DNA of 64,000 nucleotides from Clostridiaceae bacterium (lineage in GTDB: Bacteria > Bacillota > Clostridia > Saccharofermentanales > UBA5734), in NCBI GenBank assembly GCA_012520975.1, contig JAAYNF010000033.1, positions 501 to 64,500 on the forward strand. Direction: 5' to 3'. The position numbers were made by a program, and so were the translations under genes. Below are positions 6,087 through 55,416 of this stretch, piece after piece. The notes under the pieces are model-generated. The model was given only the letters and a program-made list of their open reading frames with translations, searched no databases and had not been told where the DNA came from. Position 1 is the stretch's first letter. Every line of letters starts with the position of its first letter.

Positions 6087-6163
<77 letters not shown>

Positions 6164-15799: not shown

Positions 15800-16585
15800 A
15801 TGCTCGCCGATCATTACAATATTGTCTATCGCCATTCTGACCGAACTCCGATCCAGTTGCGGATTTCCGGCAACCGCCTGGTCATTGATTGTTGTTTTTC
15901 CTACAATCGGCGAGCTTTGCGTTTGTTTCGTCCTCTTCCGGAACAGACGGCGGCGGATTTGATCGAAGCCGGCATCCGACAGGCTTGGTCGGGTGTTTAT
16001 CGGCTGAATCTGACCGGTCCGGAAGATGAGTTCCCGGTTTTTGTTCAGGTTGTCATCCATCGCGACCGTCGTCGCCGTCCGGTCCGCATTTGTTTAAAGC
16101 GTCTGCTGATCAGGCCGGCGCATGTAATCAGTCCGGTTTGGCGCCGTATCTGGGGTGTTTTTAAGACCGGACAGCTGGAATCTATGGGCACCAACTGGGC
16201 GCCGACCCATCCCGGGAAAATGATTCTGCCCATCGGACTCTCACCGGTGACTTTGCGCCAAATCGCCGCCCATGAAGCCGGACATTTGTTTGGCCTGGGC
16301 GATGCGTATGGTGCCGTTTACCGTTTCTATCACGGTGTGCAGGGAAAAGAGCGTTACATGATGTACAGCAACCAAGAGGTGCACCCGGAGGAAATCGTCA
16401 TGCTGCTCAATGCCCATCAGACCGGTCGGATGCAGTTTTTCCCCCGCTCTTGGAATACGACACGGTTTGTGCAAGGGCTGCGAACCGATATCGCCAATCG
16501 GATCACGCGACTGGAGCGGCGACTGGCCGCCCGACGGACAAAAAATCGACAAGCGCCACAAAATTCAAATCGATCCTCCGAATAA
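15800..16585 (+). CDS. Hypothetical protein with a metzincin-like zinc-protease motif
   Basis: AAHEAGHLFGLGDAYG gives HExxHxxGxxD, followed 20-25 aa later by RYMMYS, a Met-turn candidate. There is no N-terminal signal peptide or TM segment, and the tail is Arg-rich. Confidence 0.6.
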   Translation: MLADHYNIVYRHSDRTPIQLRISGNRLVIDCCFSYNRRALRLFRPLPEQTAADLIEAGIRQAWSGVYRLNLTGPEDEFPVFVQVVIHRDRRRRPVRICLKRLLIRPAHVISPVWRRIWGVFKTGQLESMGTNWAPTHPGKMILPIGLSPVTLRQIAAHEAGHLFGLGDAYGAVYRFYHGVQGKERYMMYSNQEVHPEEIVMLLNAHQTGRMQFFPRSWNTTRFVQGLRTDIANRITRLERRLAARRTKNRQAPQNSNRSSE

Positions 16586-16597
16586 CCGGTCGGTTAT

Positions 16598-17269
16598 TTA
16601 TAACAACAACCAGAGCAATGAGGCCACCAGCATGATCGGCAGGGAGAGCCTTGACCCAAATCCGGCGACCGGCGAAGAGTCGGCATTTTGGCGCAGCAAT
16701 CCTACCGCTGACAGTGTAAGGACTGCCAGCCCTGCAACCAGATGGGAAAAAAGACGTTCCGGTTGCAGAAGAATCCGCAAGGATGCCGAGATCAGGGAAA
16801 AAATAATGACGCCGGCATTCGCTTTTTTTTGGTCGTAAAGGATCATTGCCCAGACCAGAAACGAGCTGAAGGCCAAGACCGATGTGACCTGTAGGAGCAA
16901 AGCAAAATAAAAATCGGTTGCCGGGTAAAAGGCGGTGTTCATCCAGATCGGCGGTTCAAAAGAACCCGGCCGCGTCAAAGCCGCCGACAGAGCATAGTAT
17001 GAGCCGGTTAACAACTCCACCCACATATACCGGGCGGCGATCGGGGCGGCGCAATATCGGCAGCGCCTGCCCAATAGAAGATAGCTCAAAACCGGAATCA
17101 GATCCGATGCCGCCAGATCGTGCCGGCAATTCGGACAAAAGGAACGTCCCCGCACGATGGTCAGGCCGGCGGGTAGACGATAGATGCAGACATTAAGGAA
17201 GCTGCCGATCAGCAAACCGGACAGCGCAAAAAAGATGATCCAGAGCGCGGATGTCAATTCAGCCGGCAT
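16598..17269 (-). CDS. PilD/ComC-like (A24-family) prepilin peptidase homologue, catalytic motif 2 apparently degenerate
   Basis: GSFLNVCIYRLP and the CPNC..17 aa..CRYC zinc-knuckle N-domain. ATG 17269 is preceded by AAGGAG at 6 nt. GFGSRLS sits where GGGD(I/V)KL is expected. Confidence 0.7.
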   Translation of the reverse strand: MPAELTSALWIIFFALSGLLIGSFLNVCIYRLPAGLTIVRGRSFCPNCRHDLAASDLIPVLSYLLLGRRCRYCAAPIAARYMWVELLTGSYYALSAALTRPGSFEPPIWMNTAFYPATDFYFALLLQVTSVLAFSSFLVWAMILYDQKKANAGVIIFSLISASLRILLQPERLFSHLVAGLAVLTLSAVGLLRQNADSSPVAGFGSRLSLPIMLVASLLWLLL

Positions 17270-17340
17270 TTGCGACTCCTTGTCAGCGGTCAAGACATAC
17301 AGACAGAGCCCAATTAACCCGATTATTTTAACATAAAACA

Positions 17341-17364
17341 TCAAACTACGGGTCAAACTACGGG
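17341..17364. repeat. Perfect tandem 12-mer (TCAAACTACGGG x2)
   Basis: Read directly at 17341-17352 and 17353-17364, in the divergent intergenic region 14 nt upstream of the tig -35 box. Confidence 0.9.
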
Positions 17365-17407: not shown

Positions 17408-17461
17408 CTTGTAGCGTTTGCATTTCAGGCATTTTCATGCCTTTTGGGGAGGAAATACCAG

Positions 17462-18883
17462 ATGGCTTCGACCGTGGAAAAAAAGGACAATCATGTTGTT
17501 GTCGTGACGATTGATGTGCCGGCGGAAGACTTTGCCGATGCCCTTCAGCGCGCATTTCGCAAAAATGCCAGCCGCTTCAACATACCGGGTTTTCGCAAGG
17601 GTAAAGCGCCAATGAGCATTGTTACCAAATATTACGGGGAAGGCGTTCTCTACGATGATGCCATTGAGTTTGCCGCGACGCCGGCTTATGCGGCCGCGAT
17701 AGACGAACATGGATTGGAGCCGGTGGTTCGCCCGGAAATGGATATCTTGGAAATCAGCCGGGAGACCGGTATGAAGTTCACCGTAACCATCACGGTTAAG
17801 CCGGAGGTCGAACTAGGGCAATATCGCGATGTTGAGGTCATTATGCCGGAATATACCGTTAGCGATGAGGATGTGGAAAAAGAACTGCTGCGCATCCAAG
17901 AGCGCAATTCCCGTCTGATTCCCGTTGAAGATCGCGCCGTGCAGGAGGGGGATACCGCCAATATCGATTACGAAGGATTTCTGAATGAAGTTCCTTTTGA
18001 AGGTGGCAAGGGTGCCTCTTATGATTTAAAAATCGGCTCCAATATTTTCATTCCCGGCTTCGAAGAGCAGCTGATCGGTCATCATGCCGGGGAAAGCTTT
18101 GACATTGACGTCACGTTTCCGGAAGACTATGCCAACGAGGAGCTCAAAGGCCAAGCTGTTGTTTTTAAAGTGACAATCAATGAGATCAAGATCCGTGAGC
18201 TGCCGGTTCTCGATGACGAATTTGCCAAGGACGTCAGTGAATTTGACACCTTGGACGAGTACAGGGAGAGTCTGCGTGCCAAACAGACGGAATCCGCCCA
18301 AAAACGTGCCGAGGGCGAATTTAAGGACAATGTTGTCAAAACCGTTGTAGCCAATGCCACGGTTGACATTCCCAATGTCATGATCGACCAGGAGATCGAC
18401 CGCATGGTGGCCGAGCAGCGCAATCAAATGCGCTATCAAGGCATTGAATTGGAGCAGTATCTCGAATACTTGGGACAAACATTGGATGCCTTTAAAGAAC
18501 AAATGCGAGAGACCGCGGAAAATCGAATACGGACACAACTGGTCATGGAAGCAATCAGCAAAAAAGAAGAAATACAGGCCGACCCAGAAGAGATCGAAGA
18601 GGAAATTGAGCGGATGGCGACAATGTACGGTATGAAGGCCGAAGATCTCCGGGAACGAATTCCCGTCGGCGAAGATGACTTTGTCGAAGAAAGCGTCATT
18701 TCACGCAAGACGGTCGAGCTGTTAACCGCTTCCGCGGTCAAGATTCCTCAGCCTGAGGAGCAACCGAAGGCCAAGAAGCCGGCCAAGGGCAAATCCACGC
18801 GGACGAAAAAAGCCAAGGCCGACAATGCTGCGCCCCCGGCTGACGACCGGCAAACCGCATCCGATGACCAGACTGCGGAATAG
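17462..18883 (+). CDS. tig: Trigger factor (ribosome-associated PPIase chaperone) with an extra charged C-terminal tail
   Basis: N-terminal GFRKGKAP ribosome-binding signature, FKBP-type middle domain (DYEGF..FEGG). RBS GGGGAGG precedes ATG 17462. Confidence 0.93.
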   Translation: MASTVEKKDNHVVVVTIDVPAEDFADALQRAFRKNASRFNIPGFRKGKAPMSIVTKYYGEGVLYDDAIEFAATPAYAAAIDEHGLEPVVRPEMDILEISRETGMKFTVTITVKPEVELGQYRDVEVIMPEYTVSDEDVEKELLRIQERNSRLIPVEDRAVQEGDTANIDYEGFLNEVPFEGGKGASYDLKIGSNIFIPGFEEQLIGHHAGESFDIDVTFPEDYANEELKGQAVVFKVTINEIKIRELPVLDDEFAKDVSEFDTLDEYRESLRAKQTESAQKRAEGEFKDNVVKTVVANATVDIPNVMIDQEIDRMVAEQRNQMRYQGIELEQYLEYLGQTLDAFKEQMRETAENRIRTQLVMEAISKKEEIQADPEEIEEEIERMATMYGMKAEDLRERIPVGEDDFVEESVISRKTVELLTASAVKIPQPEEQPKAKKPAKGKSTRTKKAKADNAAPPADDRQTASDDQTAE

Positions 18884-19019: not shown

Positions 19020-19604
19020 ATGAGTTTAGTACCAATTGTTATTGAACAGACCAACCGCGGTGAACGCTCGTACGATATTTATTCTCGTCTCCTTAAAGAG
19101 CGGATTATTATTCTGAGTGATGCAGTCAATTCGGTAACAGCCAGCCTGATCACAGCCCAGCTGCTCTTTCTGGAAGCCGAAGACCCCGATAAGGACATCC
19201 AGTTTTATATCAACAGCCCGGGCGGTGAAGTGACCTCTGGCCTGATGATTTATGACACCATGCAATACATCAAGGCTGATGTCCAGACCATCTGCATGGG
19301 CATGGCTGCCAGCATGGGAGCCGTCCTCTTGGCCGCCGGCACCCGCGGCAAACGTTTTGCCCTGCCCAATGCCGAGATCATGATTCACCAGCCGTCAGGC
19401 GGAGTTCAGGGTCAAGCAACCGATATTCGGATCGCCGCCGATCATATTCAGAAAATGAAAGACCGTCTCAACCGGATTTTGACCGAACGGACCGGACAGC
19501 CTTTTGACCGTGTCGCGCTGGATACCGAGCGAGACAACTGGATGTCGGCTCAGGAGGCCATTGAGTACGGAATTGTTGACCAGATCATGGAGAAAAGGAT
19601 TTAA
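19020..19604 (+). CDS. clpP: ATP-dependent Clp protease proteolytic subunit
   Basis: [25 protein letters not shown]; catalytic Ser context GMAASMG and His context MIHQP. Confidence 0.96.
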
Positions 19605-19606
19605 GT

Positions 19607-20953
19607 ATGTCCGATAACAACGACAAGAATAAGGGCAACGGCAAGAGCGGCGGTCGTAGTAGCGGCAAACGGTCCAAAGGTGATCATGATTTATACGCGC
19701 AGGTCAGTTGCTCGTTCTGCGGCAAATCAGAAAGCCAGGTCGTTCGGCTGATAGCCGGTCCCGGCGTTTTCATCTGCAATGAATGCGTCGCCCTTTGCGA
19801 TGAGATTCTAAACGAAGATTTCCGACCGGTTGCGCTCCGCGAATCAATGCCGGATATGGCCGATCTGATGAATCCGGTGCGCATCAAGGAGTCCCTCGAC
19901 CAGTATGTCATCGGCCAGGAACGCGCCAAAAAAGCGTTAGCCGTTGCGGTTTATAATCACTACAAACGCGTCTATGGCAACGCGAAGGACGACCTGCACT
20001 CCGAAGATTTTGTCGATGATGTCGAATTGACCAAAAGCAACATTTTGCTTGTGGGTCCGACCGGCTGCGGCAAAACCCTGTTGGCTCAGACTCTGGCCCG
20101 GATTCTTGATGTTCCCTTTGCCATTGCCGACGCAACGGCACTGACCGAAGCCGGCTACGTTGGCGAAGATGTGGAAAACATACTGCTCAAGCTGCTTCAA
20201 AATGCCGATTATGACATTGAGCGTGCCCAACGTGGGATCATTTATATTGACGAGATCGACAAAATTACCAGAAAATCCGATAATCCGTCGATAACCAGAG
20301 ATGTCAGCGGCGAAGGGGTTCAACAGGCCCTTTTGAAGATCTTGGAAAGCACCATCGCCAATGTGCCGCCGCAGGGGGGACGGAAACATCCGCATCAGGA
20401 ATTCATCCAGATCGACACAACCAATATCCTGTTTATCTGCGGCGGTGCTTTTGACGGCCTGGAAAAGATCATTCAGAATCGGATCGGCCAGAAATCCATC
20501 GGTTTTGGCGCGCGGATCGAAAGCCGAAAAGAAAAGGATGTCGGCGAATTGCTGGGGCAGATCATGCCGCAGGATTTGCTTAAGTTTGGCCTGATTCCCG
20601 AATTTGTCGGTCGCATCCCCGTCATTGTGACTTTGGAGGCCCTCGATGAAGATGCGTTGATTCGCATCATGCAGGAGCCGCGTAACGCACTTCTTAAGCA
20701 ATACCGAAAATTATTTGATTTGGACGGCGTTGAACTGATCTTTGAACCGGATGCCGTTGCCGAGATCGCCCGGCAAGCCATGGAGCAAAACACCGGCGCC
20801 CGTGGGCTGCGAGCCATCTTGGAAGAGATCATGCTGGATATCATGTACGATATTCCTTCGAGAAACGATGTTGCCCGATGCGTCATTACCCGTGAAAGTG
20901 CGACGGGAAGTCAACCGCCCAAGATTATTCTTAAAGAGGACAAAACAGCCTAA
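19607..20953 (+). CDS. clpX: ATP-dependent Clp protease ATP-binding subunit ClpX
   Basis: Zinc-binding CSFCGK..CNEC, Walker A GPTGCGKT, Walker [10 protein letters not shown], and an IGF-like loop (SIGFGA). Confidence 0.96.
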
Positions 20954-20986
20954 CCACCAAAAATTTTGGCGGATAATGTCGACCGG

Positions 20987-21014
20987 ACGGCACCTTTCGA
21001 GGTGCCGTTTTTTA
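20987..21014 (+). terminator. Rho-independent terminator after clpX
   Basis: ACGGCACC-TTTCGA-GGTGCCGT followed by TTTTTT. Confidence 0.8.
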
Positions 21015-21050
21015 TATGCTTAAATCAATACATCAAGTCGGGAGAAAACA

Positions 21051-22640
21051 ATGTCGGCACAACAACCCAATGGTTCTCGTTATCAATACCTTAATCGGAT
21101 CGGAACAATATGGCTGGCCGTTGATCAACGAACCAAGGCCAAGGCGGTGGTTCGAGCTGCGGACACAGTGGCTGATCCTGCCGCCATCGAAAAGCTGGCC
21201 GAAATCAGACACGCGGGCCTGCCACGCTTGATCGGTCGGACCGTCGACCCGGATGGCAAGACGGCGTACGTTTTTGAATATTTAGAAGGTTGTTCGCTGG
21301 CCCAAATGGCCGATCAAGCGGGTGGCGCTCTGACCCAAGAAATCCTGATGCCGATTATCCTTGCCGTGGCAAAAATTCTCGGTTTTCTCCATCGTCAAGG
21401 CGAATTTCCTCTTGTTCACCTGGACATTAAACCGGATCACATCCTGATCGGCTCCAACGATGCCGTCAGCCTGATTGACTTTGGCGCGTCTCAACTACTT
21501 GACGGCCAATCGAGAATAAGAAAGCAAATCGGCCATGCCTTGACGCCGGCATATGCGGCACCGGAGCAAGCCATCGGCAAACCGTCACCCGCCAGCGATG
21601 TTTTTGCTTTGGGGCTGGTGTTTTTACATTTGATGACCGGCCAAGCATTGTCTTTTTGCCGAACGCAACCCACAGCGTCTTTATTGAGCAATTTTCCGGA
21701 TGCTTTTCAGCGCTTGATTTACCGCTGCCTTCATCGTGAGGTCGAACAACGCTTTGCCCATGGCGATGCGCTGGCTTCTGCCCTTGCTTCACTCCCTTCG
21801 ATCGGTTCGGACGTGGTGGCAAACATTGCAAAAACAACCGGGAACGCCGGAGCGCAAAAAGAAATTGCGCCGCCACAACAGCCTGCAAGTGTCATCTGTG
21901 TTTGGGGCAATGCCGACTTTGGCTGTGAATTGGCCGCTGTATTGGCAGAGCACGAGGATGTTCTGGTGATAGATGCCGATTTGCTGAATCCGAGAGCCGA
22001 TCTGATCCTCGGTTGCGGTCAGCCCAAAACAACCGGTTCGGATCCCTTGGAGGCCGGCGGTCTGGATTTGGCATTGACTTGTGAATCGCGAGGGCATTTG
22101 GACGTCATCAGCCTGAATCAATACATCCGATCCACAAGGGTTAAAGGGGTTTCGGCTCTGACCACCACCAGCGGTCCGACCCAATATGAATCCTTTCAGC
22201 TTAATGCGCTGGCAAAGGTCATTCATCTTGCCCGCCTGATTTGTCGCTTCGTTGTTATCTTGTGCAGCGCATTCATTTTTGACGGATTCACCTGCCTTGG
22301 TTTGCGTATGGCAGATCGGGTTTTGGTTCCGGTTGCTGCTGATATCGGATCTTTTCGGGAAAAAAATCTGGCGATCGACCACCAGATTGCACAGTATAAT
22401 TTTGACATCAACAAATTGTCTTTTGTCGCGTTCCCCTACAGTCCGATTTACGATTTGAGCCGTGGTTGTGTGGATGAGCTAAGCCGCGGACGCTTGATCG
22501 GTACGATCAGCGACGTCGGTTCGCGCCGCAAAATGAAATGTGGAGCCCGACCATATGCGGCGGCGCTGGCTAAGGGCAACCGACACGAATATCGTGACTT
22601 GATTCGCAAGCTCCGAATTCTTCCCGGTCGCTGGAGGTAA
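21051..22640 (+). CDS. Fusion protein: Hanks-type Ser/Thr-kinase-like domain (degenerate) plus a MinD/ParA/CpaE(TadZ)-like domain lacking a P-loop
   Basis: Kinase subdomains: YVFEYLEGCSL, HLDIKPDH, DFGAS, TPAYAAPEQ, DVFALGLVFLHLMTG. There is no GxGxxG loop, AVVR replaces VAIK, and His replaces the HRDxKPxN Asn. The C-terminal half (VICVWGNADFGCELAAVLA..VLVIDADL..) aligns by eye to the CpaE/MinD fold, with GNADFGCE where KGGxGKT is expected. Confidence 0.75.
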   Translation: MSAQQPNGSRYQYLNRIGTIWLAVDQRTKAKAVVRAADTVADPAAIEKLAEIRHAGLPRLIGRTVDPDGKTAYVFEYLEGCSLAQMADQAGGALTQEILMPIILAVAKILGFLHRQGEFPLVHLDIKPDHILIGSNDAVSLIDFGASQLLDGQSRIRKQIGHALTPAYAAPEQAIGKPSPASDVFALGLVFLHLMTGQALSFCRTQPTASLLSNFPDAFQRLIYRCLHREVEQRFAHGDALASALASLPSIGSDVVANIAKTTGNAGAQKEIAPPQQPASVICVWGNADFGCELAAVLAEHEDVLVIDADLLNPRADLILGCGQPKTTGSDPLEAGGLDLALTCESRGHLDVISLNQYIRSTRVKGVSALTTTSGPTQYESFQLNALAKVIHLARLICRFVVILCSAFIFDGFTCLGLRMADRVLVPVAADIGSFREKNLAIDHQIAQYNFDINKLSFVAFPYSPIYDLSRGCVDELSRGRLIGTISDVGSRRKMKCGARPYAAALAKGNRHEYRDLIRKLRILPGRWR

Positions 22641-22644
22641 GTCG

Positions 22645-23931
22645 ATGCCATTAATGACACCATCCTCAATCCTGCCAGACGATACGGCTCTATATCGACA
22701 GGTTGACATCAAGACCGGTGTTTTTGATTATGCTGATTTGGCGGAACTTGTATCGGCCGTGTGCAGCCGGATTTTAGATAGCGATCCGGCGCTTGTTGCT
22801 GATATTGCGGCCGGCCGGGCAAAGCGGCAGGCATTGACGCCCTTGATACAAAAATTTGCTAAGGAGGAAAGCCACCGTGCCGGTGTGTTCATGGTTGATT
22901 TACAGGAACAAATTATGGACTTTCTCTTTGGTTATGGGTTATTGCAACCTTACATCGATGATGAATCGGTCTCCGATATCGACGGAACCGGACCGGACGA
23001 GTTTTCCATCAAGACCGATGGTCAGCGTCGCCCCTTGGCCATTGCCTTCCCGGATGAGAAGAGTTATGACATCTTCTGCCGTTTGGCCATTATCCGGAAC
23101 GGCGGCATTATCAATGAAAATGACAGCCACTGTCGCGTCGCCGATGAACGTTACCGTCTTCGGATCAATGTTACGGTACCGCCCCGAAGCGTCAATCGCA
23201 CATCCATCAGCATTCGAAAACACCGTCTGAAAGCCTATCGGTTTCCTGACTTGGAACGATTAGGAATGTTGGATGGGGAATTGGTGTCTTTGTTGACCTA
23301 TCTGGCCGGTTCCCGTTTCTCCGTTTTGTTTTGCGGGAAAGGTGGTGCCGGCAAAACCACGCTGCTACGGGCTTTCATTCAGGCGATGCCCGAGATGGAG
23401 CGCGTTTTAATTGCCGAAAGTGACACGGAACTGTATCCGGATAAACCCTATTGCCTGGTTCAGCGGATTCACAAGCCCAACGAGGGGGGTCGGCCGGTTC
23501 AGTTGCGAGATCTGATCGCCGATGGTTTGACCATGTCATTGGACAGCTATGTTATCGGCGAAATTGTCGGAAGTGAGGCTCTGGAATTTATGCGAGCAGC
23601 TTTTTCCGGGCATCGCTGCTTGGCCACAACACATGCCGGCAGTGCGATGGATGCGTTGGAGCGACTGGTCACTCTTGGTCGGTCTGCTCCCGGAGGCGAG
23701 AGCGAAGGACTTATGCGCAGGATGCTGGCCCACGGCATACATTATCTGGTTTTTTTGAGTGATTTCCAGGTCAAAGAGGTTGACCGGGTTGTGCCCTGCC
23801 GAAAAGGAGAAAATGAATATGAAATTGTTCCGGTTTGGCGACCTATCCAAAATCCGAAATCAGACCTTACAGATGACCAGCATGATGGCCCGCTGGTGCC
23901 AGGTCCGGGAAGACCTGATGTACATTTTTGA
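22645..23931 (+). CDS. tadA: TadA/CpaF-family pilus-assembly ATPase (T2SSE/VirB11 superfamily)
   Basis: Walker A GKGGAGKTTLL, Asp/Walker B region VLIAESDTEL, VIGEIVGSEALEF, and His box ATTHAGS. RBS GGAGGT lies 5 nt upstream. Confidence 0.88.
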   Translation: MPLMTPSSILPDDTALYRQVDIKTGVFDYADLAELVSAVCSRILDSDPALVADIAAGRAKRQALTPLIQKFAKEESHRAGVFMVDLQEQIMDFLFGYGLLQPYIDDESVSDIDGTGPDEFSIKTDGQRRPLAIAFPDEKSYDIFCRLAIIRNGGIINENDSHCRVADERYRLRINVTVPPRSVNRTSISIRKHRLKAYRFPDLERLGMLDGELVSLLTYLAGSRFSVLFCGKGGAGKTTLLRAFIQAMPEMERVLIAESDTELYPDKPYCLVQRIHKPNEGGRPVQLRDLIADGLTMSLDSYVIGEIVGSEALEFMRAAFSGHRCLATTHAGSAMDALERLVTLGRSAPGGESEGLMRRMLAHGIHYLVFLSDFQVKEVDRVVPCRKGENEYEIVPVWRPIQNPKSDLTDDQHDGPLVPGPGRPDVHF

Positions 23932-24388
23932 CCAAGTTGCCAACAGTGATATCGAAGACCCGATCCGAACTTTGGTTCTTGATTTTCTTTCTCGAGTTCG
24001 CGGAGGCATGGCGCCCGATCGCGCGCTTTTGCTCATGCAGAAAAGTTTGCCCCATGAACATTTTGTCGATTTGATTACGGCTGTCCGGTTTAACTTCAAA
24101 TATCGAGGCAAGCTGGGTCCCTTGTTGGAGCAAATGGAATTGCATTTTCATCGTATTGAGGAAGAATACACCCACCGACGTCTGACCAACCTTCGTGATT
24201 GTAAATTAACTTTCATGATTTTGGCCGTCGTGCCGCCGTTCTTTCTTATTCGCTTGGCAACCAACCCGGAAGCACAACAGGCTTTCGGAGCAATATCCTC
24301 CGGCCCCTTGATTTTTTGTTTGTGTCTGTTGCTTTATTTGGGAGCTGTTGCTGCCTTCCTGTTCATTTGGCGGCATATTAACGGGTGA
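23819..24388 (+). CDS. TadB-like inner-membrane platform protein (T2SS-F domain)
   Basis: A cytoplasmic helical domain (FLSRVRGGMAPDRALLL..LGPLLEQMELHF) followed by TM helices. AAGGAG at 23804-23809 precedes ATGs at 23813 and 23819, so the start is uncertain, and the gene overlaps the tadA 3' end. Confidence 0.65.
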   Translation: MKLFRFGDLSKIRNQTLQMTSMMARWCQVREDLMYIFDQVANSDIEDPIRTLVLDFLSRVRGGMAPDRALLLMQKSLPHEHFVDLITAVRFNFKYRGKLGPLLEQMELHFHRIEEEYTHRRLTNLRDCKLTFMILAVVPPFFLIRLATNPEAQQAFGAISSGPLIFCLCLLLYLGAVAAFLFIWRHING

Positions 24389-24398
24389 GGGGAGCTTC

Positions 24399-25220
24399 AT
24401 GGCAACATTAACAGGATTCTTTTTTTCCGCTGTTCTGATCGGGCTTTTGGTTTACCAACTCCTGCCGACCTTCTCCTCTTGGATTGGTCGGCTCCATGTC
24501 CAAGGTTCGTGGCATCGGCATCAACAAAGACCACCGTTCGGTCGGCGGAACCGGCTGCCGAAAAAATGGAGCGATCACTTTGAGAGGCGCTTGAGGTTGG
24601 CCGGCATCGAAATCGACAGATATCGGGTTCGTGTTTTGTATCTCTCACCGATTCTCATCTTAATTCTGGTTGTTGTCGGTGACTGGCTGCAGCGCCTGAT
24701 GGTTGTGGTTCTTTTTTGCTGCCTTTTCAACTCGTGGATTAACAAAAAAATTCGGACTCGTCGGCAAGCCTACACCAAAGCCTTGTATAAGATCTATCGT
24801 TTCTTGGATTTTCAGTTGACGGCCGGCATAAAAACGGTCGATGCCTTTCGAGGTCTGCCCGATGCTGTTCACGATTCAATTGTGCGGCCGGTCCTCGTTC
24901 GTTTTTCCGCCAGATTTGAACTGACTCTTGATCTGAATCAGGCAATGGAAGAGATTGGTCGCTTCTTCCCCGGTACAGACACAAATCTGTTGGCGACCCA
25001 TTTGCGGCAATGCTTGGATACCGGCCAGGCCGGCCGATCCCTGCTGCGCATGGAGGAGTTGCTTTTTGCCCGGTGCTTTTCAATCATGCAAAACGAAACC
25101 AAGAAAATCCGAACCCAACTCTTGTTTGCCGCATTGCTGGGCATCTGTCCCTTGATCATTCTTTATCTGTATCCGTTGGCGATACAAACCCTGTTTGCGT
25201 TGCAAAGTGTTTTTGGTTGA
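24399..25220 (+). CDS. TadC-like inner-membrane platform protein (T2SS-F domain)
   Basis: N-terminal TM, a central cytoplasmic domain (FQLTAGIKTVDAFRGLPD..LRQCLDTGQAG) and C-terminal TMs. It is the second platform paralogue, as in Tad loci. Confidence 0.65.
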   Translation: MATLTGFFFSAVLIGLLVYQLLPTFSSWIGRLHVQGSWHRHQQRPPFGRRNRLPKKWSDHFERRLRLAGIEIDRYRVRVLYLSPILILILVVVGDWLQRLMVVVLFCCLFNSWINKKIRTRRQAYTKALYKIYRFLDFQLTAGIKTVDAFRGLPDAVHDSIVRPVLVRFSARFELTLDLNQAMEEIGRFFPGTDTNLLATHLRQCLDTGQAGRSLLRMEELLFARCFSIMQNETKKIRTQLLFAALLGICPLIILYLYPLAIQTLFALQSVFG

Positions 25221-25281
25221 TCGTGGCTGCGCCATTGTCAATAAATAATCAATTCTCACAAAGAGACATGGAGGTAAAAGC

Positions 25282-25509
25282 ATGAGAAACTATGAAAAAA
25301 AACATCGTCGGTTCAAAAACCCACAGGCAGGATGGCAGCTGCGTCGAAAGGGCGGATTCGGCCTCAATGAAGTCATCGGAATTGCCGCCGGCATCATTAT
25401 CGCCGCGGTTGTGGTCATTCCCGGCTTACAGCGTTTTGCCGGCAATATCCTGGAAAATCTAACCAGTTGGTGGAACAATATGGCCGCCAGTATCTTTTCC
25501 ACCCGTTAA
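25282..25509 (+). CDS. Flp/type-IV-like prepilin (75 aa)
   Basis: Basic 25-aa leader ending RRKGG, then FGLNEVIGIAAGIIIAAVVVIPG (G at -1, F at +1, E at +5, hydrophobic helix). RBS GGAGGT lies 6 nt upstream. Confidence 0.7.
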   Translation: MRNYEKKHRRFKNPQAGWQLRRKGGFGLNEVIGIAAGIIIAAVVVIPGLQRFAGNILENLTSWWNNMAASIFSTR

Positions 25510-25521
25510 GGCGGACCTGCA

Positions 25522-25950
25522 ATGATTGATAAATTACTGATTTCCGTCATGGCCGGAGCGTTAACGGTTATTCTTTTTATGCAGCTTATGCTGTGCGCGT
25601 TGCCCTTTTTTTGCCGAATGGAGTTTGACGCGATCTGTCACCAGTACGCTTTACGCATGGATCGGGCCGGTGGAATGGACAACAAACTCCGTCTGGCAAT
25701 GATCGAAGAGCTGCAAAGGCAAGGATTTTTGATTGAACGTATCGAGGCGAGCACGTCAGCGCCGTACGGCGGTGATTTGAATCTCATGGTCAAAGCCGAC
25801 TTTCCGTTTTATCGAATCGGGTCGCAACTCACGTTGGAGGAGGTGAGCATATCGGTTACCTACCAAACAAACATGATTTGTCGCCTGCTGAAAGTCGTCG
25901 CCGCGGCTCGGTGGCCGCTCTGGTTGTCATTGTGTTTTGTACGGCTCTGA
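25522..25950 (+). CDS. Small pilus-cluster protein with an N-terminal hydrophobic helix (minor-pilin/TadE-F-like candidate)
   Basis: The N-terminus LLISVMAGALTVILFMQLMLCALPFF, and the gene's position directly after the pilin gene. No diagnostic motif was recognised. Confidence 0.5.
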   Translation: MIDKLLISVMAGALTVILFMQLMLCALPFFCRMEFDAICHQYALRMDRAGGMDNKLRLAMIEELQRQGFLIERIEASTSAPYGGDLNLMVKADFPFYRIGSQLTLEEVSISVTYQTNMICRLLKVVAAARWPLWLSLCFVRL

Positions 25951-26342
25951 TCTTGTTGCCTCTCGGCGTTTCCGGTGTCGGCTTTCTTTCGGATCTGGTT
26001 CTGCTTCAGCGATCCAAACAGCACGTAAAAACCAGCATATACGCTGCGGGCGTGTGCCTGTCCGCTGATCTTCTTTCTGTCGGAAAACTGGAACTGGACA
26101 TCCCGTTGGCAACCAGCAAGATCCGAAAAGAGTTCCTTGACCGACTGCCGGCCATGCTCGCCGGCCGACTGACTTTAATTGCTGTTGAAATCGTTTTTCG
26201 TCCGGTTGTTTACGATCCATCACATTGGCAAGGTGAGAACCAGCCCAAGCGATTGCCGATAATCCGGATCCGAGCCGCCTTTTGGGATCGCTTTGGTCAA
26301 CGAATCTTGCTGGAAGATTCCCTTGAATATCTCATTGATTAG
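25878..26342 (+). CDS. TadE-like pseudopilin candidate
   Basis: RRRGSVAALVVIVFCTALILLPLGV resembles the TadE N-terminal RGSAAVEFALV.. segment. The start is a non-ATG codon (TTG 25878 or GTG ~25908) and the gene overlaps the previous one. Confidence 0.5.
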   Translation: MSPAESRRRGSVAALVVIVFCTALILLPLGVSGVGFLSDLVLLQRSKQHVKTSIYAAGVCLSADLLSVGKLELDIPLATSKIRKEFLDRLPAMLAGRLTLIAVEIVFRPVVYDPSHWQGENQPKRLPIIRIRAAFWDRFGQRILLEDSLEYLID

Positions 26343-26388
26343 TCGTGGGCTTGATTTGAAGAAAAAATACCGCAAAAGAGGTTGAATC

Positions 26389-27033
26389 ATGCGTAGAAAG
26401 AAACAGATATTCTTGTCCTTGGGTATCGCGATTGTTTTGCTTGCCGTGACTTGGTGGGTTGATTTGTGGCGGAATACGGAAGCGACAATTCAGGTCTTGG
26501 CGGCACGATGCGACATCCCGGCGGGTAGTCGCATCGAAGCCGACCACTTGGCCTTGATCAGCATTCCTGCTTCCTTAAACCGAGCCGGTTACCTGGAAAA
26601 CCAAGAACTGGCCATTGGGCGGTGGACAACGGGTTTTCTGGCGGAAGGGGAATTTATTACCACCAATCGCCTGCACGATCGAGCCAGAGGACTGAGCTAT
26701 CCTGATGCCGCCCTTGGACGAAGACTGATTACACTGAAACTGGAGCCGGCCGCAGCCAACGGATTCTGGCTGGCCGCCGGAAATCACATCGACTTGTTTC
26801 TCATTCCTCACAGCCAGGATCGGGAAAGTGAGATGCTGATTTTGGAACAAATCCGGATTATGGCGGTTCTTGATGAAAACACCGGTCATCGCCTGACCGA
26901 CACGCATCTTGCCACGACCACCGGACGTCTGATCTGCTTGGACCTGAACGTTGAACAGGCCGGCTTGATCCTTGGTCGCTTGGGCAGTCATGATATCAGG
27001 ATGGCGGTTGTCAACGAAAATCCGACAGGTTAA
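26389..27033 (+). CDS. CpaB/RcpC-like pilus assembly protein (TM anchor + SAF domain)
   Basis: An N-terminal anchor (IFLSLGIAIVLLAV) followed by IQVLAARCDIPAGSRIEADHL, the SAF-domain signature seen at the start of CpaB proteins. Confidence 0.7.
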   Translation: MRRKKQIFLSLGIAIVLLAVTWWVDLWRNTEATIQVLAARCDIPAGSRIEADHLALISIPASLNRAGYLENQELAIGRWTTGFLAEGEFITTNRLHDRARGLSYPDAALGRRLITLKLEPAAANGFWLAAGNHIDLFLIPHSQDRESEMLILEQIRIMAVLDENTGHRLTDTHLATTTGRLICLDLNVEQAGLILGRLGSHDIRMAVVNENPTG

Positions 27034-27038
27034 GAGCT

Positions 27039-27067
27039 TTTACAAGCACGTGCCAATCTGCTATCAT
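27039..27067 (+). promoter_or_regulatory. Sigma-A-type promoter upstream of the AraC-fol genes
   Basis: TTTACA, a 17-nt spacer, then TATCAT. Confidence 0.45.
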
Positions 27068-27084
27068 GGGTGCAGGTGATGAAT

Positions 27085-28044
27085 ATGTTTGAGGACCTGC
27101 TGCCAGCAGTTGAAAAAGGAATTATTGATGCGACCGGATCCATTCCGGTCGTCTTTAAAGGCATTGAAAGAAACCTGCAAAAAGGACTTGTTTCCGAAGC
27201 TCCCAGTCGGCATGATTACCACGAATTAACTTATATTCGCAGCGGCAAGGCTGAATTTGAAGTGGAAGGCAAGCGAGTTTTGCTGGAAAAAGGAGCCACC
27301 ATTGTCATTCGGCCCAATACATCCCATCTGGTCCGAGTGCCTGAAGGTCAAGCTGACGTAATCGGATTGTATTTCGGTTTTACCCGTCAAATAACAGGAA
27401 GCCAGTCGGGATCCCAGCCTCAGCGAACCACCGATATTGCTCCGCAAACTCTGGAGTATTTTATTAATTTTGCCTATGGCCGGGATCTGCCCGAAGGCGA
27501 AATAGGCAAGGATCCGTTTATTCTGATTCGCGGCAAGAACCGGCAGGATATCGCCACCTTGATTGAGCGTATTATCCGCGAAAGCCGGCAAGATGCCTAC
27601 GGTCGGGAGCTGATGATGCAGCTGATGACCATGGAGATTTTGGTTGCCGTGGCCCGGGGCATCCGGGAGGAATGGGAAGAGAGTCTTCGGGTAAGGACCG
27701 GCAAAGCGCGGGAACTGGTTCGTATAGCCCGGGATTTTATTGTTGAGAACCATGATCGGGATATTACTGTGGCTGATGCCGCGGGTTATGTTTTTCTCAG
27801 TCAGGGTTATTTTACCCGGGCATTCCGCGATGAAACCGGCATGAGCCCGATGAGCTTTTTGATGCAGGTGCGTGTTGCCCATGCCTGCAAACTATTGGAG
27901 CAGCGCGACATTAAAGTCAGTGGCGTGGCCCTTCAGGTTGGTTTTTCCAGTCCACAGCGCTTTAATGCGGCTTTTCGCAAACATATGGGAAAAACACCAA
28001 TGGAGTACCGAAAGCAAATCTTGGAAATGAAAGAAGGGAAGTAA
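27085..28044 (+). CDS. AraC-family transcriptional regulator (cupin + HTH)
   Basis: The N-terminal cupin-like region (HDYHELTYIRSGKAEFEVEG) and the C-terminal HTH pair (SQGYFTRAFRDETGMSPMSF..VGFSSPQRFNAAFRKHMGKTPMEYR). Confidence 0.85.
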   Translation: MFEDLLPAVEKGIIDATGSIPVVFKGIERNLQKGLVSEAPSRHDYHELTYIRSGKAEFEVEGKRVLLEKGATIVIRPNTSHLVRVPEGQADVIGLYFGFTRQITGSQSGSQPQRTTDIAPQTLEYFINFAYGRDLPEGEIGKDPFILIRGKNRQDIATLIERIIRESRQDAYGRELMMQLMTMEILVAVARGIREEWEESLRVRTGKARELVRIARDFIVENHDRDITVADAAGYVFLSQGYFTRAFRDETGMSPMSFLMQVRVAHACKLLEQRDIKVSGVALQVGFSSPQRFNAAFRKHMGKTPMEYRKQILEMKEGK

Positions 28045-30528: not shown

Positions 30529-31134
30529 ATGAGTAGTAGTGGCAATACCCCCAATACCGGAGGTTCAAAGAGCAATCCAAGCCACCGCCGGCGCAGTACG
30601 AGAAATTTTGGACCGTCCGCAGCGGCCGATGGCAAAGCATCCGCGTCCGGACAGACCAAGAGCGACCGTTCCCAAGCATCCGTGGATAAAGATCGCCGCA
30701 TTGACCAATCGGCCGGATCCGATCAGCGCTCTCGCAAAAGCACCTCCAACCAACGACAGGGGAATTCGCCCGGCGGCAAAAAGAATCCGCAGTCGGTCAC
30801 CGCAAGGTCGGGACAGCAACCCCGCCGACCCAATCAGCCGCAACGGCGTCCGCAGCAAAGCAAGTCCCAGCAGACTCAGGGCGGACGTTCTCCGGCGGAA
30901 CCAAGAGCCAAAACCGCCCCCCACCAGCAAACAGAGGCCGCGGCGCAACGTCCGGCGGCGCAGAAAGTTCAGAATCGTTCGCGGGGACAGGCGCAAAAAC
31001 AACGTGTGAACCGTTGGGAAAAACAAATCAAGGCTGAAGAGACTTTCGAAGACATTAAACGAGAAAATGATCGCATCGAAAAGGAAATCTGGTTGGAGAT
31101 TGCCGGCATCCATACGATCAAACTTGATTTGTAA
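30529..31134 (+). CDS. Highly basic low-complexity (S/R/Q/P/K/G-rich) protein with a short structured C-terminal segment
   Basis: RBS AGGAGGGAAAA ATG. The stop TAA abuts the ATG of the next gene. The C-terminal ~45 aa (NRWEKQIKAEETFEDIKRENDRIEKEIWLEIAGIHTIKLDL) is non-repetitive. The frame was chosen on RBS, coupling and this tail. Confidence 0.6.
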   Translation: MSSSGNTPNTGGSKSNPSHRRRSTRNFGPSAAADGKASASGQTKSDRSQASVDKDRRIDQSAGSDQRSRKSTSNQRQGNSPGGKKNPQSVTARSGQQPRRPNQPQRRPQQSKSQQTQGGRSPAEPRAKTAPHQQTEAAAQRPAAQKVQNRSRGQAQKQRVNRWEKQIKAEETFEDIKRENDRIEKEIWLEIAGIHTIKLDL

Positions 31135-39884: not shown

Positions 39885-39913
39885 TTCATTTGCGCTCGTG
39901 CCATGAGCGACAC

Positions 39914-39989
39914 GGGAGCTTAGCTCAGCTGGGAGAGCATCTGCCTTACAAGCAGGGGGTCACAGGTTCGAGTCCTGTAGCTCCCACCA
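39914..39989 (+). tRNA. tRNA-Val (anticodon UAC)
   Basis: A 76-nt cloverleaf: acceptor GGGAGCT/AGCTCCC, anticodon stem TCTGC/GCAGG with loop CTTACAA, T loop TTCGAGT, and an encoded CCA. Confidence 0.93.
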
Positions 39990-40003
39990 ATATTCAGGTA
40001 TAC

Positions 40004-40080
40004 GGCGCAGTAGTTCAGCCGGTTAGAATGCCAGCCTGTCACGCTGGAGGTCGAGGGTTCGAGTCCCTTCTGCGTCGCCA
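40004..40080 (+). tRNA. tRNA-Asp (anticodon GUC)
   Basis: A 77-nt cloverleaf: acceptor GGCGCAG/CTGCGTC, anticodon stem CCAGC/GCTGG with loop CTGTCAC, and an encoded CCA. Confidence 0.93.
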
Positions 40081-40084
40081 ACAA

Positions 40085-40160
40085 GCCCAGATAGCTCAGT
40101 CGGTAGAGCAGTGGACTGAAAATCCACGTGTCGCTGGTTCGATTCCTGCTCTGGGCACCA
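40085..40160 (+). tRNA. tRNA-Phe (anticodon GAA)
   Basis: A 76-nt cloverleaf: acceptor GCCCAGA/TCTGGGC, anticodon stem GTGGA/TCCAC with loop CTGAAAA, and an encoded CCA. Confidence 0.93.
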
Positions 40161-40166
40161 AATGAA

Positions 40167-52130: not shown

Positions 52131-52152
52131 TCTGTAATGGAGTTGAAGGGTG

Positions 52153-55312: not shown

Positions 55313-55416
55313 AACCTAGGACGCAGCCGTCGATACATTTTCTTGTGTTGATAGCTGCTTTTTTTTGTTTAAGGGTCCTATAAGCTGCGAAATTTTATTT
55401 TTTGGAGATGAGGATT

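What the first reader, a model, noticed from the sequence alone, without database searches (positions are those of the whole stretch)
21051..27033. Complete-looking Tad/Flp-like (type IVc) pilus cluster directly after the clpX terminator
Eight co-directional, tightly packed or overlapping genes follow the clpX terminator (20987-21014). In order they are: a TadZ-position gene, TadA/CpaF ATPase (GKGGAGKTT, ATTHAGS), two T2SS-F-like platform proteins, a 75-aa Flp-like prepilin, two small proteins with N-terminal hydrophobic helices (TadE/F-like), and a CpaB/RcpC-like SAF-domain protein. No secretin gene is present, which fits a monoderm envelope. The order tadZ-tadA-tadB-tadC-flp-tadE-tadF matches the layout described for Gram-positive tad loci such as Bifidobacterium. 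In Bacillus the tig/clpX neighbourhood continues into lon genes, so this cluster looks like accessory content in a housekeeping block.
Basis: partly seen in the sequence, partly recalled or inferred. Interest (0 to 1): 0.6.

Follow-up and report, generated by a model that had tools for sequence, protein, structure and literature searches.

The report
Gram-positive Tad pilus operon, kinase-fused TadZ
This is a real eight-gene operon for a Tad/Flp-type adhesive pilus in an uncultured Clostridia bacterium; it is ordinary in kind, but its usual ATP-binding "TadZ" organiser is replaced by a kinase-like domain fused to an organiser domain that has lost its ATP-binding loop.

Summary
Eight co-directional, tightly packed ORFs (21051-27033) start 40 nt after a strong clpX terminator. 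The genes encode a CpaF/TadA-type ATPase, two divergent T2SSF platform proteins, a 75-aa prepilin with a G/FGLNE cleavage motif, a DUF4320-like membrane protein, a protein with pilin-like architecture, and a CpaB/RcpC protein. No secretin is present, and the organism is a Saccharofermentanales MAG (Clostridia).

Three corrections:
1. The first gene is not a normal TadZ. It is a Hanks-kinase-like domain fused to a MinD/ParA-fold domain whose Walker A loop is replaced by "WGNADFGCE". In this clade the kinase has also lost the Gly-rich loop, the β3 Lys (now Arg) and the αC Glu.
2. The cluster is not recent accessory cargo. It sits between clpX and araC-folE in 21-22 of about 25 related genomes, but next to clpX in none of 50 outgroup loci.
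3. It is not complete. No working prepilin peptidase lies in the 64 kb. There is only an A24_N-domain gene without the GxGD aspartate.

The kinase-TadZ-like fusion is widespread (82 clusters at 50% identity), was not recognised in the annotations I checked, and is absent from the literature I could search. Verdict: a new variant of a known kind, of moderate interest.

The parts
20985..21018 (+). Intrinsic terminator of clpX, 40 nt upstream of the first cluster gene
   Evidence: Stem of 11 pairs (6 G-C), loop of 4, then a T-run; it is the best terminator-like site in the region. No convincing sigma-70-like promoter fits in the 40 nt before g1, so how the cluster is transcribed is not settled.
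21051..21800 (+). g1, N-terminal half: Hanks-type Ser/Thr-kinase-like domain with degenerate ATP-binding elements (predicted pseudokinase or atypical kinase)
   Evidence: Pkinase 76.7 bits against a cut-off of 31.7, aa 46-241. The best solved relatives are PknA and PknB. D125, K127, D143 (DFG) and the APE Glu are kept. The Gly-rich loop is deleted, the β3 Lys is Arg35, the αC Glu is absent, and the catalytic-loop Asn is His130. RBS GGGAG lies 6 nt before the ATG.
21879..22640 (+). g1, C-terminal half: TadZ/CpaE-position domain with a MinD/ParA fold that lacks a Walker A loop
   Evidence: The window sequence has no Pfam hit. The family profile hits MinD 6riq (E 1.7e-4), Soj and FleN. The AF2 model has pLDDT 87.8 and pTM 0.89. 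Foldseek gives MinD, FleN, ParA and FlhG at TM about 0.71, E 2e-10. 'CVWGNADFGCE' sits where KGGxGK[ST] would be. Distant family members reach AAA_31 and CbiA.
22645..23931 (+). g2: TadA/CpaF-type secretion ATPase (motor)
   Evidence: T2SSE E 8.1e-26, 91 bits. The best NCBIfam hit is the TadA family TIGR03819 at 7.5e-36, below its cut-off. The best solved relative is Caulobacter CpaF at 3.9e-26, ahead of archaeal GspE, VirB11, FlaI and PilT. Walker A GKGGAGKT is at aa 231 and the His box ATTHAGS at aa 327.
23813..24388 (+). g3: TadB-like half-size platform protein; its start overlaps the tadA 3' end by 119 nt
   Evidence: T2SSF E 3.4e-5, 24.2 bits against a cut-off of 25.2. AAGGAG lies before ATG 23813. 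Hydrophobic segments are at the C-terminus. Conserved in 33 loci.
24399..25220 (+). g4: TadC-like half-size platform protein
   Evidence: T2SSF E 0.003-0.02 for the window protein, but 9 of 12 family members hit T2SSF, best 2e-5. hhalign of the g3 and g4 families aligns 98 columns at E 7e-4, over the same regions that match T2SSF. GGGGAG RBS.
25282..25509 (+). g5: 75-aa Flp-like prepilin; predicted cleavage between Gly25 and Phe26 (nt 25356/25357), giving a mature pilin of 50 aa
   Evidence: It has a basic 25-aa leader followed by G/FGLNEVIGIAAGIIIAAVVVIPGL. The core GFG(L/I)NEVIGIAAG...WW is the best conserved part of the cluster, with median identity 68%. No Pfam or NCBIfam hit. GGAGG RBS.
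25522..25950 (+). g6: small membrane-anchored protein, a weak DUF4320 relative (function unknown; not a class III signal peptide)
   Evidence: The window protein has no hit. Three of 5 homologues hit DUF4320 from profile position 1-3, below threshold, at 6e-4, 2e-3 and 0.17. N-terminal hydrophobic segment at aa 1-34. Conserved motif FDAxCHxY..MD..GGL.
25878..26342 (+). g7: candidate minor pilin or pseudopilin
   Evidence: The conserved N-terminus RRGS-V...LLPLG resembles a TadE-type leader, but there is no Glu5. The AF2 model has pLDDT 85.2: one helix at aa 3-60, then a small head with a 3-stranded sheet, which is the pilin 'lollipop' architecture. No Pfam hit and no significant Foldseek match in PDB. 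The start codon is uncertain; databases start it at GTG 25911.
26389..27033 (+). g8: CpaB/RcpC-like protein with an N-terminal membrane anchor
   Evidence: SAF 34.1 bits against a cut-off of 21. RcpC 25.4 bits against 28.8. TIGR03177 pilus_cpaB E 1.1e-16, 60.9 bits against a cut-off of 71. Single hydrophobic segment at aa 5-27.
16598..17356 (-). Context only; membership uncertain: prepilin-peptidase-like gene with the A24 N-terminal domain but no recognisable peptidase domain
   Evidence: A24_N_bact E 1.6e-30. Peptidase_A24 is not hit even at E 0.1, and there is no NCBIfam hit. In 17 homologues one Asp (WAMIxxD) is invariant but no GxGD motif exists. It lies upstream of tig in most related loci and is absent from the three out-of-order clusters L032, L034 and L035.
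27070..28044 (+). Context only: AraC-family regulator immediately downstream, with its own promoter-like site at 27039-27067
   Evidence: HTH_18 2.1e-23 and Cupin_2. Promoter-like TTTACA-17-TATCAT. Present downstream in 21 of 24 loci, but not in L032, L034 or L035. Its target is unknown.

Best explanation
The region is an operon for a secretin-less Tad/Flp-type (type IVc) pilus of a monoderm Clostridia bacterium (order Saccharofermentanales). It is inherited vertically at a fixed site between clpX and araC-folE.

Proposed mechanism, with each step marked as shown or inferred:
1. The 75-aa prepilin g5 inserts into the membrane. Its 25-aa basic leader is removed after Gly25 by a prepilin peptidase encoded elsewhere. 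This is inferred; the G/FGLNE motif is shown, the peptidase was not found.
2. The TadA/CpaF hexamer g2 uses ATP to drive the two half-size platform proteins g3 and g4. These lift 50-aa pilins out of the membrane into a thin filament. This is inferred from homology to CpaF and TadB/C.
3. g7, which has a pilin-like architecture, and perhaps g6 prime or cap the filament. This is a weak inference.
4. Membrane-anchored CpaB/RcpC g8 forms a ring outside the membrane that guides the filament through the wall zone. This is inferred from the RcpC dodecamer of P. aeruginosa (PMC12307814).
5. g1 takes the place of TadZ/CpaE as the cytoplasmic organiser. Its MinD-fold domain can no longer bind ATP in the canonical way, so it acts as a nucleotide-independent docking module for the motor or platform. 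Its kinase-like domain replaces the receiver-like N-domain of TadZ as the input or interaction module. In this clade I judge the kinase-like domain more likely a pseudokinase scaffold than an active kinase. Relatives with intact motifs probably do phosphorylate.

The likely role is adhesion or aggregation on surfaces or plant fibre in anaerobic digesters. This is inferred from Tad pili generally and was not tested here.
For: Component identities:
- ATPase.
- Platform proteins.
- Prepilin.
- g7 model.
- CpaB.
- No secretin among the ORFs scanned against Pfam.

Organism: g1 is 100% identical to a protein of a Saccharofermentanales MAG; the order belongs to class Clostridia, phylum Bacillota.

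Selection and ancestry:
- All eight genes are intact and collinear in about 25 genomes down to 21-40% identity.
- clpX lies upstream in 22 of 26 loci and araC downstream in 21 of 24.
- Base composition equals that of the flanks.
- The cluster is absent next to clpX in 0 of 50 outgroup loci.

g1:
- Kinase domain.
- MinD fold.
- Loss of Walker A across the family.
- Family link to AAA_31 and CbiA.
- Relatives of the C-domain occur alone, with other N-domains, or with a kinase (82 representatives), always in the position before tadA where checked (L032, L034, L035, L037).
- Motif census: Gly-loop present in about 21 and deleted in about 59 of 82; catalytic Asp, Lys and DFG Asp kept in 81 of 82.
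Against: - No prepilin peptidase is in the window. The only A24-like gene lacks the GxGD aspartate.
- The pilin, g6 and g7 match no curated pilin family, and g7 has no significant structural match in PDB.
- The two platform proteins and CpaB (TIGR03177, RcpC) score below curated cut-offs in the window sequence.
- No promoter was identified. A strong terminator sits 40 nt upstream, so expression is unproven.
- The near-invariant catalytic Asp, Lys and DFG Asp of g1 argue that the kinase domain keeps some nucleotide- or metal-dependent activity. This cuts against a pure scaffold role.
- Nothing here shows a filament, adhesion, or any phosphorylation.
Confidence: 0.78

Rival explanations
1. The machine and filament are the same, but the main job is DNA uptake (natural competence) rather than adhesion. 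This is the case for the Tad-type pili of Micrococcus luteus.
For: Tad-type pili mediate transformation in a monoderm (PMC6916266, PMC8467076). In M. luteus a CpaB/SAF gene and a TadZ/CpaE gene affect competence. The cluster is core-like and conserved in the order, as competence genes often are.
Against: No comEA, comEC, dprA or other DNA-processing genes are in the cluster or the window; this rests on ORF inspection and partial Pfam scans. ComGA similarity is much weaker than TadA/CpaF similarity (2.1e-11 against 7.5e-36). Function cannot be read from sequence alone.
Confidence: 0.12
2. g1 is a fully active Ser/Thr kinase that switches the pilus motor on or off. It would do this by phosphorylating TadA, the platform, or its own MinD-like domain. 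This would be direct phospho-control of a type IV filament.
For: The catalytic Asp, the catalytic-loop Lys, the DFG Asp and the APE Glu are kept in 81-82 of 82 family representatives. About a quarter of the family, for example P0036-P0040, has every canonical motif and sits in the same position before tadA. Established knowledge: Hanks kinases regulate the archaellum in Sulfolobus (ArnC/ArnD). Kinases also accompany T6SS and several T7SS variants (PMC11217815).
Against: The window protein lacks the Gly-rich loop, has Arg for the β3 Lys, has no αC Glu, and has His for the metal-binding Asn. No FHA-domain protein or PP2C phosphatase partner is in the cluster.
Confidence: 0.3
3. The cluster is a decaying or silent remnant. 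It is insulated from transcription by the clpX terminator, lacks its peptidase, and its organiser protein has lost both nucleotide sites.
For: There is a strong terminator 40 nt upstream and no promoter-like site before g1. The peptidase-like neighbour has lost GxGD. Both the Walker A and the kinase ATP-site elements are degenerate.
Against: All eight ORFs are intact, with good RBSs for g1-g5. The same eight genes are conserved in order across an entire bacterial order at identities as low as 21-40%, which needs purifying selection. The pilin core is 68% identical at the median. The degenerate features are themselves conserved family traits, not random decay.
Confidence: 0.04
4. It is not a pilus but a Tad-like contact-dependent killing or protein-export apparatus, like the Myxococcus Kil system.
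For: Tad-like machines have been re-purposed for prey killing (PMC8460266, listed). Tad clusters sit next to T7SS variants in some Bacillota (PMC11217815).
Against: No toxin, effector, immunity or T7SS genes are adjacent. The most conserved product is a classical short pilin.
Confidence: 0.04

Closest known systems
Bifidobacterium breve UCC2003 Tad (Tfpc) locus tadZ-tadA-tadB-tadC-flp-tadE-tadF, with tadV elsewhere (PMC6916266)
   Same: It is a monoderm, secretin-less system with the same gene order from the organiser through the ATPase, two platform paralogues, a small pilin and two small N-terminally hydrophobic proteins. The prepilin peptidase is not in the locus.
   Different: Here the organiser is a kinase-like domain fused to a Walker-A-less MinD-fold domain instead of TadZ. 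A CpaB/RcpC gene ends the operon. The pilin has G/FGLNEV rather than the Flp G/XXXXEY motif and does not hit Flp models. The small proteins do not hit TadE.
TadZ/CpaE (A. actinomycetemcomitans TadZ, Eubacterium rectale TadZ structure, Caulobacter CpaE)
   Same: It occupies the same position immediately upstream of tadA. It has the same ParA/MinD/FleN-type fold. It has the same two-domain logic of an N-terminal input or interaction domain plus a C-terminal MinD-like domain.
   Different: TadZ has an atypical but functional Walker A that binds ATP, and an atypical receiver domain (PMC6668835, PMC11217815). g1 has no Walker A at all ('WGNADFGCE') and has a protein-kinase-like N-domain. The E. rectale paper itself could not be read.
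Caulobacter crescentus Cpa and P. aeruginosa Rcp/Tad systems (CpaF, CpaB/RcpC)
   Same: The ATPase's best solved relative is CpaF. g8 has the TM-anchor, SAF and RcpC layout of RcpC/CpaB, which forms a dodecameric conduit (PMC12307814).
   Different: Those are diderm systems in which RcpC docks on the secretin RcpA. Here there is no secretin, so any g8 ring must work with the wall or on its own.
EssB/YukC of the type VIIb secretion system: a pseudokinase domain used as a structural machine component (PMC9600267, PMC11217815)
   Same: It is a kinase-fold domain with degenerate catalytic or ATP-binding elements, built into a Firmicutes envelope-spanning machine. It is presumably a scaffold.
   Different: The machine is unrelated (T7SS), and the protein is membrane-anchored with no MinD-like domain. 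There is no homology beyond the kinase fold. This is an analogy only.

Membership tests
Tad/Flp (type IVc) pilus system | TadA/CpaF-clade T2SSE ATPase encoded next to the platform genes | tested here: met
   T2SSE 91 bits against a cut-off of 24.9. The best NCBIfam hit is the TadA family. The best PDB relative is CpaF at 3.9e-26, ten orders of magnitude better than archaeal GspE and further still from VirB11, FlaI and PilT.
Tad/Flp (type IVc) pilus system | Two paralogous half-size platform proteins (TadB and TadC), each with one T2SSF domain | tested here: met
   g3 hits T2SSF at 3.4e-5 and g4 at 0.003-0.02; both are just under the gathering score. Nine of 12 g4 homologues hit T2SSF. The g3 and g4 profiles align over the T2SSF regions at E 7e-4. 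The evidence is weak but consistent.
Tad/Flp (type IVc) pilus system | Very small Flp-type prepilin with a class III signal peptide and the Flp motif G/XXXXEY | tested here: inconclusive
   The precursor is 75 aa and the predicted mature pilin 50 aa. G/FGLNEV has Gly-1 and Glu+5 but Val instead of Tyr+6. No Pfam or NCBIfam hit.
Tad/Flp (type IVc) pilus system | TadZ/CpaE: a ParA/MinD-family protein with an atypical but ATP-binding Walker A and an N-terminal atypical receiver domain | tested here: not met
   The fold is MinD/ParA. However, the Walker A is absent in the window protein and in nearly all listed relatives, and the N-domain is a protein-kinase fold. It works in the TadZ position but is not a TadZ by definition.
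Tad/Flp (type IVc) pilus system | Dedicated prepilin peptidase (TadV/CpaA, A24 family, two catalytic Asp) | tested here: not met
   None is in the cluster. No Peptidase_A24 hit appears among the ORFs scanned; the window's remaining ORFs were read by eye only. The A24_N gene at 16598-17356 lacks the peptidase domain hit and the GxGD motif. The rest of the genome could not be searched.
Tad/Flp (type IVc) pilus system | Minor pilins TadE/TadF (TadE-like N-terminal domain, PF07811) | tested here: inconclusive
   No TadE hit for g6, g7 or ten homologues. The g7 AF2 model has the pilin-like long N-terminal helix plus a small sheet, but there is no significant PDB match. g6 is weakly DUF4320-like.
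Tad/Flp (type IVc) pilus system | RcpC/CpaB (TM anchor, SAF and RcpC domains) | tested here: met
   SAF is above its cut-off. RcpC scores 25.4 against 28.8. TIGR03177 gives E 1.1e-16 at 60.9 bits against a cut-off of 71. There is an N-terminal hydrophobic segment.
Tad/Flp (type IVc) pilus system | Passing the TXSScan/TFFscan (MacSyFinder) Tad model | not testable with these tools
   MacSyFinder and its profiles are not available here.
Catalytically active Hanks-type Ser/Thr protein kinase | Gly-rich loop GxGxxG, β3 Lys (VAIK) paired with the αC Glu | tested here: not met
   There is a five-residue deletion at the Gly-rich loop. Arg35 aligns with the PknA β3 Lys. There is no Glu at the αC position.
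Catalytically active Hanks-type Ser/Thr protein kinase | Catalytic loop (H/Y)RDxKxxN, DFG and APE motifs | tested here: inconclusive
   The catalytic loop reads HLDIKPDH: Asp125 and Lys127 are present, and Asn is replaced by His130. DFG (Asp143) and APE are present.
ParA/MinD (deviant Walker A) ATPases | Deviant Walker A KGGxGK[ST] and ATP-dependent dimerisation | tested here: not met
   The fold matches at TM about 0.71. The P-loop position reads WGNADFGCE. Only one of about 190 listed relatives (P0256, GTNGAGKSS) keeps a P-loop. Dimerisation is not testable here.
ComG-type competence pseudopilus (ComM) | ComGA ATPase with a single full-length ComGB platform and ComGC-type pilins | tested here: not met
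   The ComGA model hits only at 2.1e-11, far behind TadA/CpaF. The platform is split into two half-size genes. A CpaB gene is present.

The most novel reading that the evidence does not exclude
In Saccharofermentanales and other Clostridia, the ATP-dependent TadZ/CpaE organiser of the Tad pilus has been replaced by a different kind of control module. This module is a Hanks-kinase or pseudokinase domain fused to a MinD-fold domain that has given up nucleotide binding. Control of pilus-machine assembly or placement would then run through Ser/Thr phospho-signalling in members with intact motifs, or through a pseudokinase scaffold in the window's clade. I found neither logic described for a bacterial type IV filament in the library I could search.
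Probability: 0.35. Interest if true: 0.6.

Novelty: new variant of a known kind. Interest (0 to 1): 0.4.

Why it matters
Tad pili are widespread colonisation devices, and how the minimal monoderm machine is held together and controlled is an open question (PMC6916266).

This cluster offers a natural experiment on that question:
- The organiser has lost the ATP site that TadZ is thought to need.
- It carries a kinase-fold input domain.
- Within one protein family there are versions with an intact kinase and versions with a degenerate one.
- The cluster includes a CpaB/RcpC gene in a secretin-less Gram-positive, which two papers read here describe as missing from Gram-positive tad loci. It therefore bears on what RcpC does without a secretin.

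Practically, public annotation calls g1 only 'serine/threonine protein kinase', so annotation by family models, which do not match its C-terminal domain, is unlikely to recognise the TadZ-position gene. In other respects the finding is an ordinary Tad operon.

Tried and rejected
- Conjugation- or T4SS-related ATPase cluster. The best NCBIfam name is 'TadA family conjugal transfer-associated ATPase' and VirB11 also hits. I rejected this: no relaxase or other T4SS genes are present, the locus is in core chromosomal synteny, and CpaF is the best solved relative.
- Recent horizontal insertion. I rejected this on base composition and order-wide synteny.
- The A24_N gene as the missing TadV. I rejected it as a peptidase because there is no Peptidase_A24 hit and no GxGD in 17 homologues. 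A methyltransferase-only role is conceivable but was not tested.
- Receiver-like N-domains in the L034 and L035 relatives. They look receiver-like by eye, but neither Pfam nor PDB sequence search supports this, so I make no claim.
- Dead ends:
  - The g8 sequence search against PDB gave nothing.
  - The g4 profile against PDB gave nothing.
  - g7 has only 8 database relatives and no Foldseek match.
  - The E. rectale TadZ paper is not held.
  - No paper mentions DUF4320.
- Extra sequence between clpX and g1 in L013. I thought it might be lon; it is a secA-like gene on the opposite strand.

Full report
**Observation.** The window carries tig (17444-18883), clpP (19020-19604) and clpX (19607-20953). 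After clpX comes the best intrinsic-terminator-like site of the region: stem 20985-21010, 11 pairs, then a T-run. Forty nucleotides later, eight co-directional ORFs run from 21051 to 27033 with gaps of 4-61 nt or overlaps. Shine-Dalgarno sequences support ATG 21051, 22645, 23813, 24399 and 25282. With ATG 23813, tadB overlaps the 3' end of tadA by 119 nt.

**What the genes are.**
- g2 is a T2SSE ATPase (E 8e-26). Its best NCBIfam match is the TadA family and its best solved relative is Caulobacter CpaF at 3.9e-26. Archaeal GspE (1e-15), VirB11, FlaI and PilT follow.
- g3 and g4 are polytopic membrane proteins with sub-threshold T2SSF matches (3.4e-5 and 0.003-0.02). Nine of 12 g4 homologues hit T2SSF. 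The two family profiles align with each other over the T2SSF regions at E 7e-4.
- g5 (75 aa) hits no curated pilin model. Its core is the best conserved sequence of the cluster, GFG(L/I)NEVIGIAAGIIIAAVVVIPGL...WW. It follows a basic leader, which gives a class III signal peptide G25/F26-G-L-N-E30 and a 50-aa mature pilin.
- g6 has a plain N-terminal anchor, and its homologues give weak DUF4320 hits.
- g7 has a conserved RRGS-V...LLPLG N-terminus. Its confident AF2 model (pLDDT 85) has one 58-residue helix followed by a small head with a three-stranded sheet, which is the general pilin architecture. It has no family hit and no significant PDB match.
- g8 is a TM-anchored SAF/RcpC protein, with TIGR03177 at 1e-16.
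- No secretin or other pilus gene turned up in the rest of the window; the unassigned ORFs were scanned against Pfam and the rest were read by eye.
- g1 is 100% identical to a protein of a Saccharofermentanales MAG. The order belongs to class Clostridia.

**The first gene.** g1 (529 aa) is not a TadZ in the defined sense.

Residues 46-241 are a protein-kinase domain (76.7 bits), with PknA and PknB as the nearest solved relatives.

Residues 277-529 hit nothing in Pfam. However, a profile of the family finds MinD, Soj and FleN in PDB (best E 1.7e-4). An AF2 model (pLDDT 87.8, pTM 0.89) superposes on MinD, FleN, ParA and FlhG at TM about 0.71, E 2e-10. Where these ATPases carry KGGxGK[ST], g1 and its relatives carry an invariant W-x-x-x-x-x-G-C-E ('CVWGNADFGCE').

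A profile search of 1.84 billion representatives finds 443 relatives of this domain. Among the 150 best plus the first search's hits, only one keeps a P-loop (P0256), and that one passes AAA_31 and CbiA. The domain occurs alone (about 260 aa), behind unassigned N-domains of 60-250 aa, or behind a kinase domain (82 representatives). Wherever I looked it sits just upstream of tadA (L032, L034, L035, L037).

In the kinase domain, the catalytic Asp and Lys, the DFG Asp and the APE Glu are kept in 81-82 of 82 representatives. Only about 21 keep the Gly-rich loop and the αC Glu. The window protein belongs to the most degenerate class: loop deleted, β3 Lys replaced by Arg35, no αC Glu, and catalytic-loop Asn replaced by His130.

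**Genomic setting.** In 36 loci retrieved through TadA, the arrangement [A24_N gene, minus strand] tig-clpP-clpX | g1-g8 | araC-folE-folP-folB-folK recurs. clpX is upstream in 22 of 26 informative loci and araC is downstream in 21 of 24. Cluster proteins are far more diverged (median identity 33-55%, pilin 68%) than the flanking housekeeping genes (clpP 85%, clpX 74%, folE 78%). Base composition does not differ from the flanks.

In an independent sample of 80 metagenome loci with ClpX at 62-70% identity, none of the 50 with enough downstream sequence has the cluster next to clpX. So the cluster is specific to this lineage but fixed and old within the order. It is not recent mobile cargo. Three clusters from other Clostridia (L032, L034, L035) keep the same eight-gene order in other contexts, without the kinase and without a peptidase gene.

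**What is missing.** No prepilin peptidase is in the cluster or the window. The gene at 16598-17356 (minus strand) has a strong A24 N-terminal domain (1.6e-30) but no Peptidase_A24 match. In 17 homologues it keeps one invariant Asp and no GxGD motif. Processing must therefore depend on a gene elsewhere, as in B. breve (PMC6916266). No promoter-like site fits between the terminator and g1, so the mode of transcription is open.

**Mechanism.** I propose the following.
1. Prepilin g5 is cleaved after Gly25 by a peptidase encoded elsewhere.
2. The TadA hexamer drives the TadB/TadC-like platform to polymerise the 50-aa pilin.
3. g7, and perhaps g6, primes or caps the filament.
4. g8 forms an RcpC-like ring outside the membrane (PMC12307814), here without a secretin partner.
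5. g1 replaces TadZ as organiser. Its MinD-fold domain docks without nucleotide, and its kinase-fold domain is the interaction or input module.

The component identities rest on the homology evidence given above. The steps themselves are inferred from characterised Tad systems. For this clade I favour a pseudokinase scaffold (about 0.5) over an active kinase (about 0.3). The conserved catalytic residues keep the second option alive. Relatives with intact motifs probably do phosphorylate.

**Comparison with known systems.** The closest known system is the monoderm Tad locus of B. breve, which has the same order and the peptidase elsewhere. Next come TadZ/CpaE and the Cpa/Rcp systems. The differences here are the organiser's architecture, the in-operon CpaB gene, the pilin motif (Val for Tyr at +6), and small proteins that are not recognisable TadE/TadF. 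On CpaB, Pelicic (PMC6916266) and the M. luteus study (PMC8467076) describe rcpC/cpaB as missing from Gram-positive tad loci.

I found no paper describing a kinase-TadZ fusion, though the library is incomplete. Public annotation names g1 only as a Ser/Thr kinase.

**Verdict.** The finding is real and correctly identified as a Tad-type pilus operon. It is not complete and not recent accessory cargo, and its TadZ-position gene is an undescribed variant. Novelty: a new variant of a known kind. Interest: moderate (0.4).

Noticed in passing
window 16598-17356 (- strand); homologues in L002-L033: A prepilin-peptidase-like gene keeps the Zn-finger A24 N-terminal domain (1.6e-30) but has no Peptidase_A24 match and no GxGD motif in 17 homologues. 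It may be a pseudo-peptidase or a methyltransferase-only derivative. The window copy also ends about 60 aa earlier than its homologues.
   Followed up: partly
window 23813-23931; e.g. L008 11028-11194: The 3' end of tadA and the 5' end of tadB overlap in different frames by about 120-170 nt. The overlap is conserved across related genomes, which is unusually long for a bacterial operon.
   Followed up: partly
window 55236-59321: tRNA-Val(GAC) at 55236-55312 is followed by a low-GC stretch (39-44% against about 52%). The stretch carries a 7TM-GGDEF-EAL protein (55402-58515) and, on the minus strand, a gene that looks like a carbonic anhydrase by eye. It may be an island integrated at the tRNA.
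   Followed up: partly
window 27070-28044: An AraC-family regulator (cupin plus HTH_18) with its own promoter-like site directly follows cpaB. It is better conserved (median 69%) than the pilus genes. Whether it regulates the pilus cluster or the folate genes downstream is unknown.
   Followed up: no
window 30529-31134: A 201-aa, very basic, Ser/Gln/Arg/Pro-rich, probably disordered protein with no Pfam hit. Only its last 40 residues or so are conserved (about 70%) in related loci.
   Followed up: no
window 52150-55128 and 15800-16585: A 992-aa protein with an N-terminal hydrophobic segment has no Pfam hit. A 261-aa protein with an HEAGH (HExxH) metalloprotease-like motif also has no Pfam hit.
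   Followed up: no
window 39914-40160 and 6087-6163: A tRNA cluster Val(TAC)-Asp(GTC)-Phe(GAA) lies on the + strand, and tRNA-Arg(ACG) on the - strand. The ORF called at 39890-40165 is a spurious translation of the tRNA genes.
   Followed up: yes
L013 3891-6221 (- strand); likely also L025: In some related genomes a secA-like gene (776 aa) on the opposite strand lies between clpX and the kinase-TadZ-like gene. The junction after clpX is therefore not invariant.
   Followed up: partly
P0256 (275 aa), found with the g1 C-domain profile: This is the only listed relative of the P-loop-less domain family that keeps a Walker A (GTNGAGKSS). It passes AAA_31 and CbiA, and may be a bridge to canonical TadZ/ParA proteins.
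   Followed up: partly
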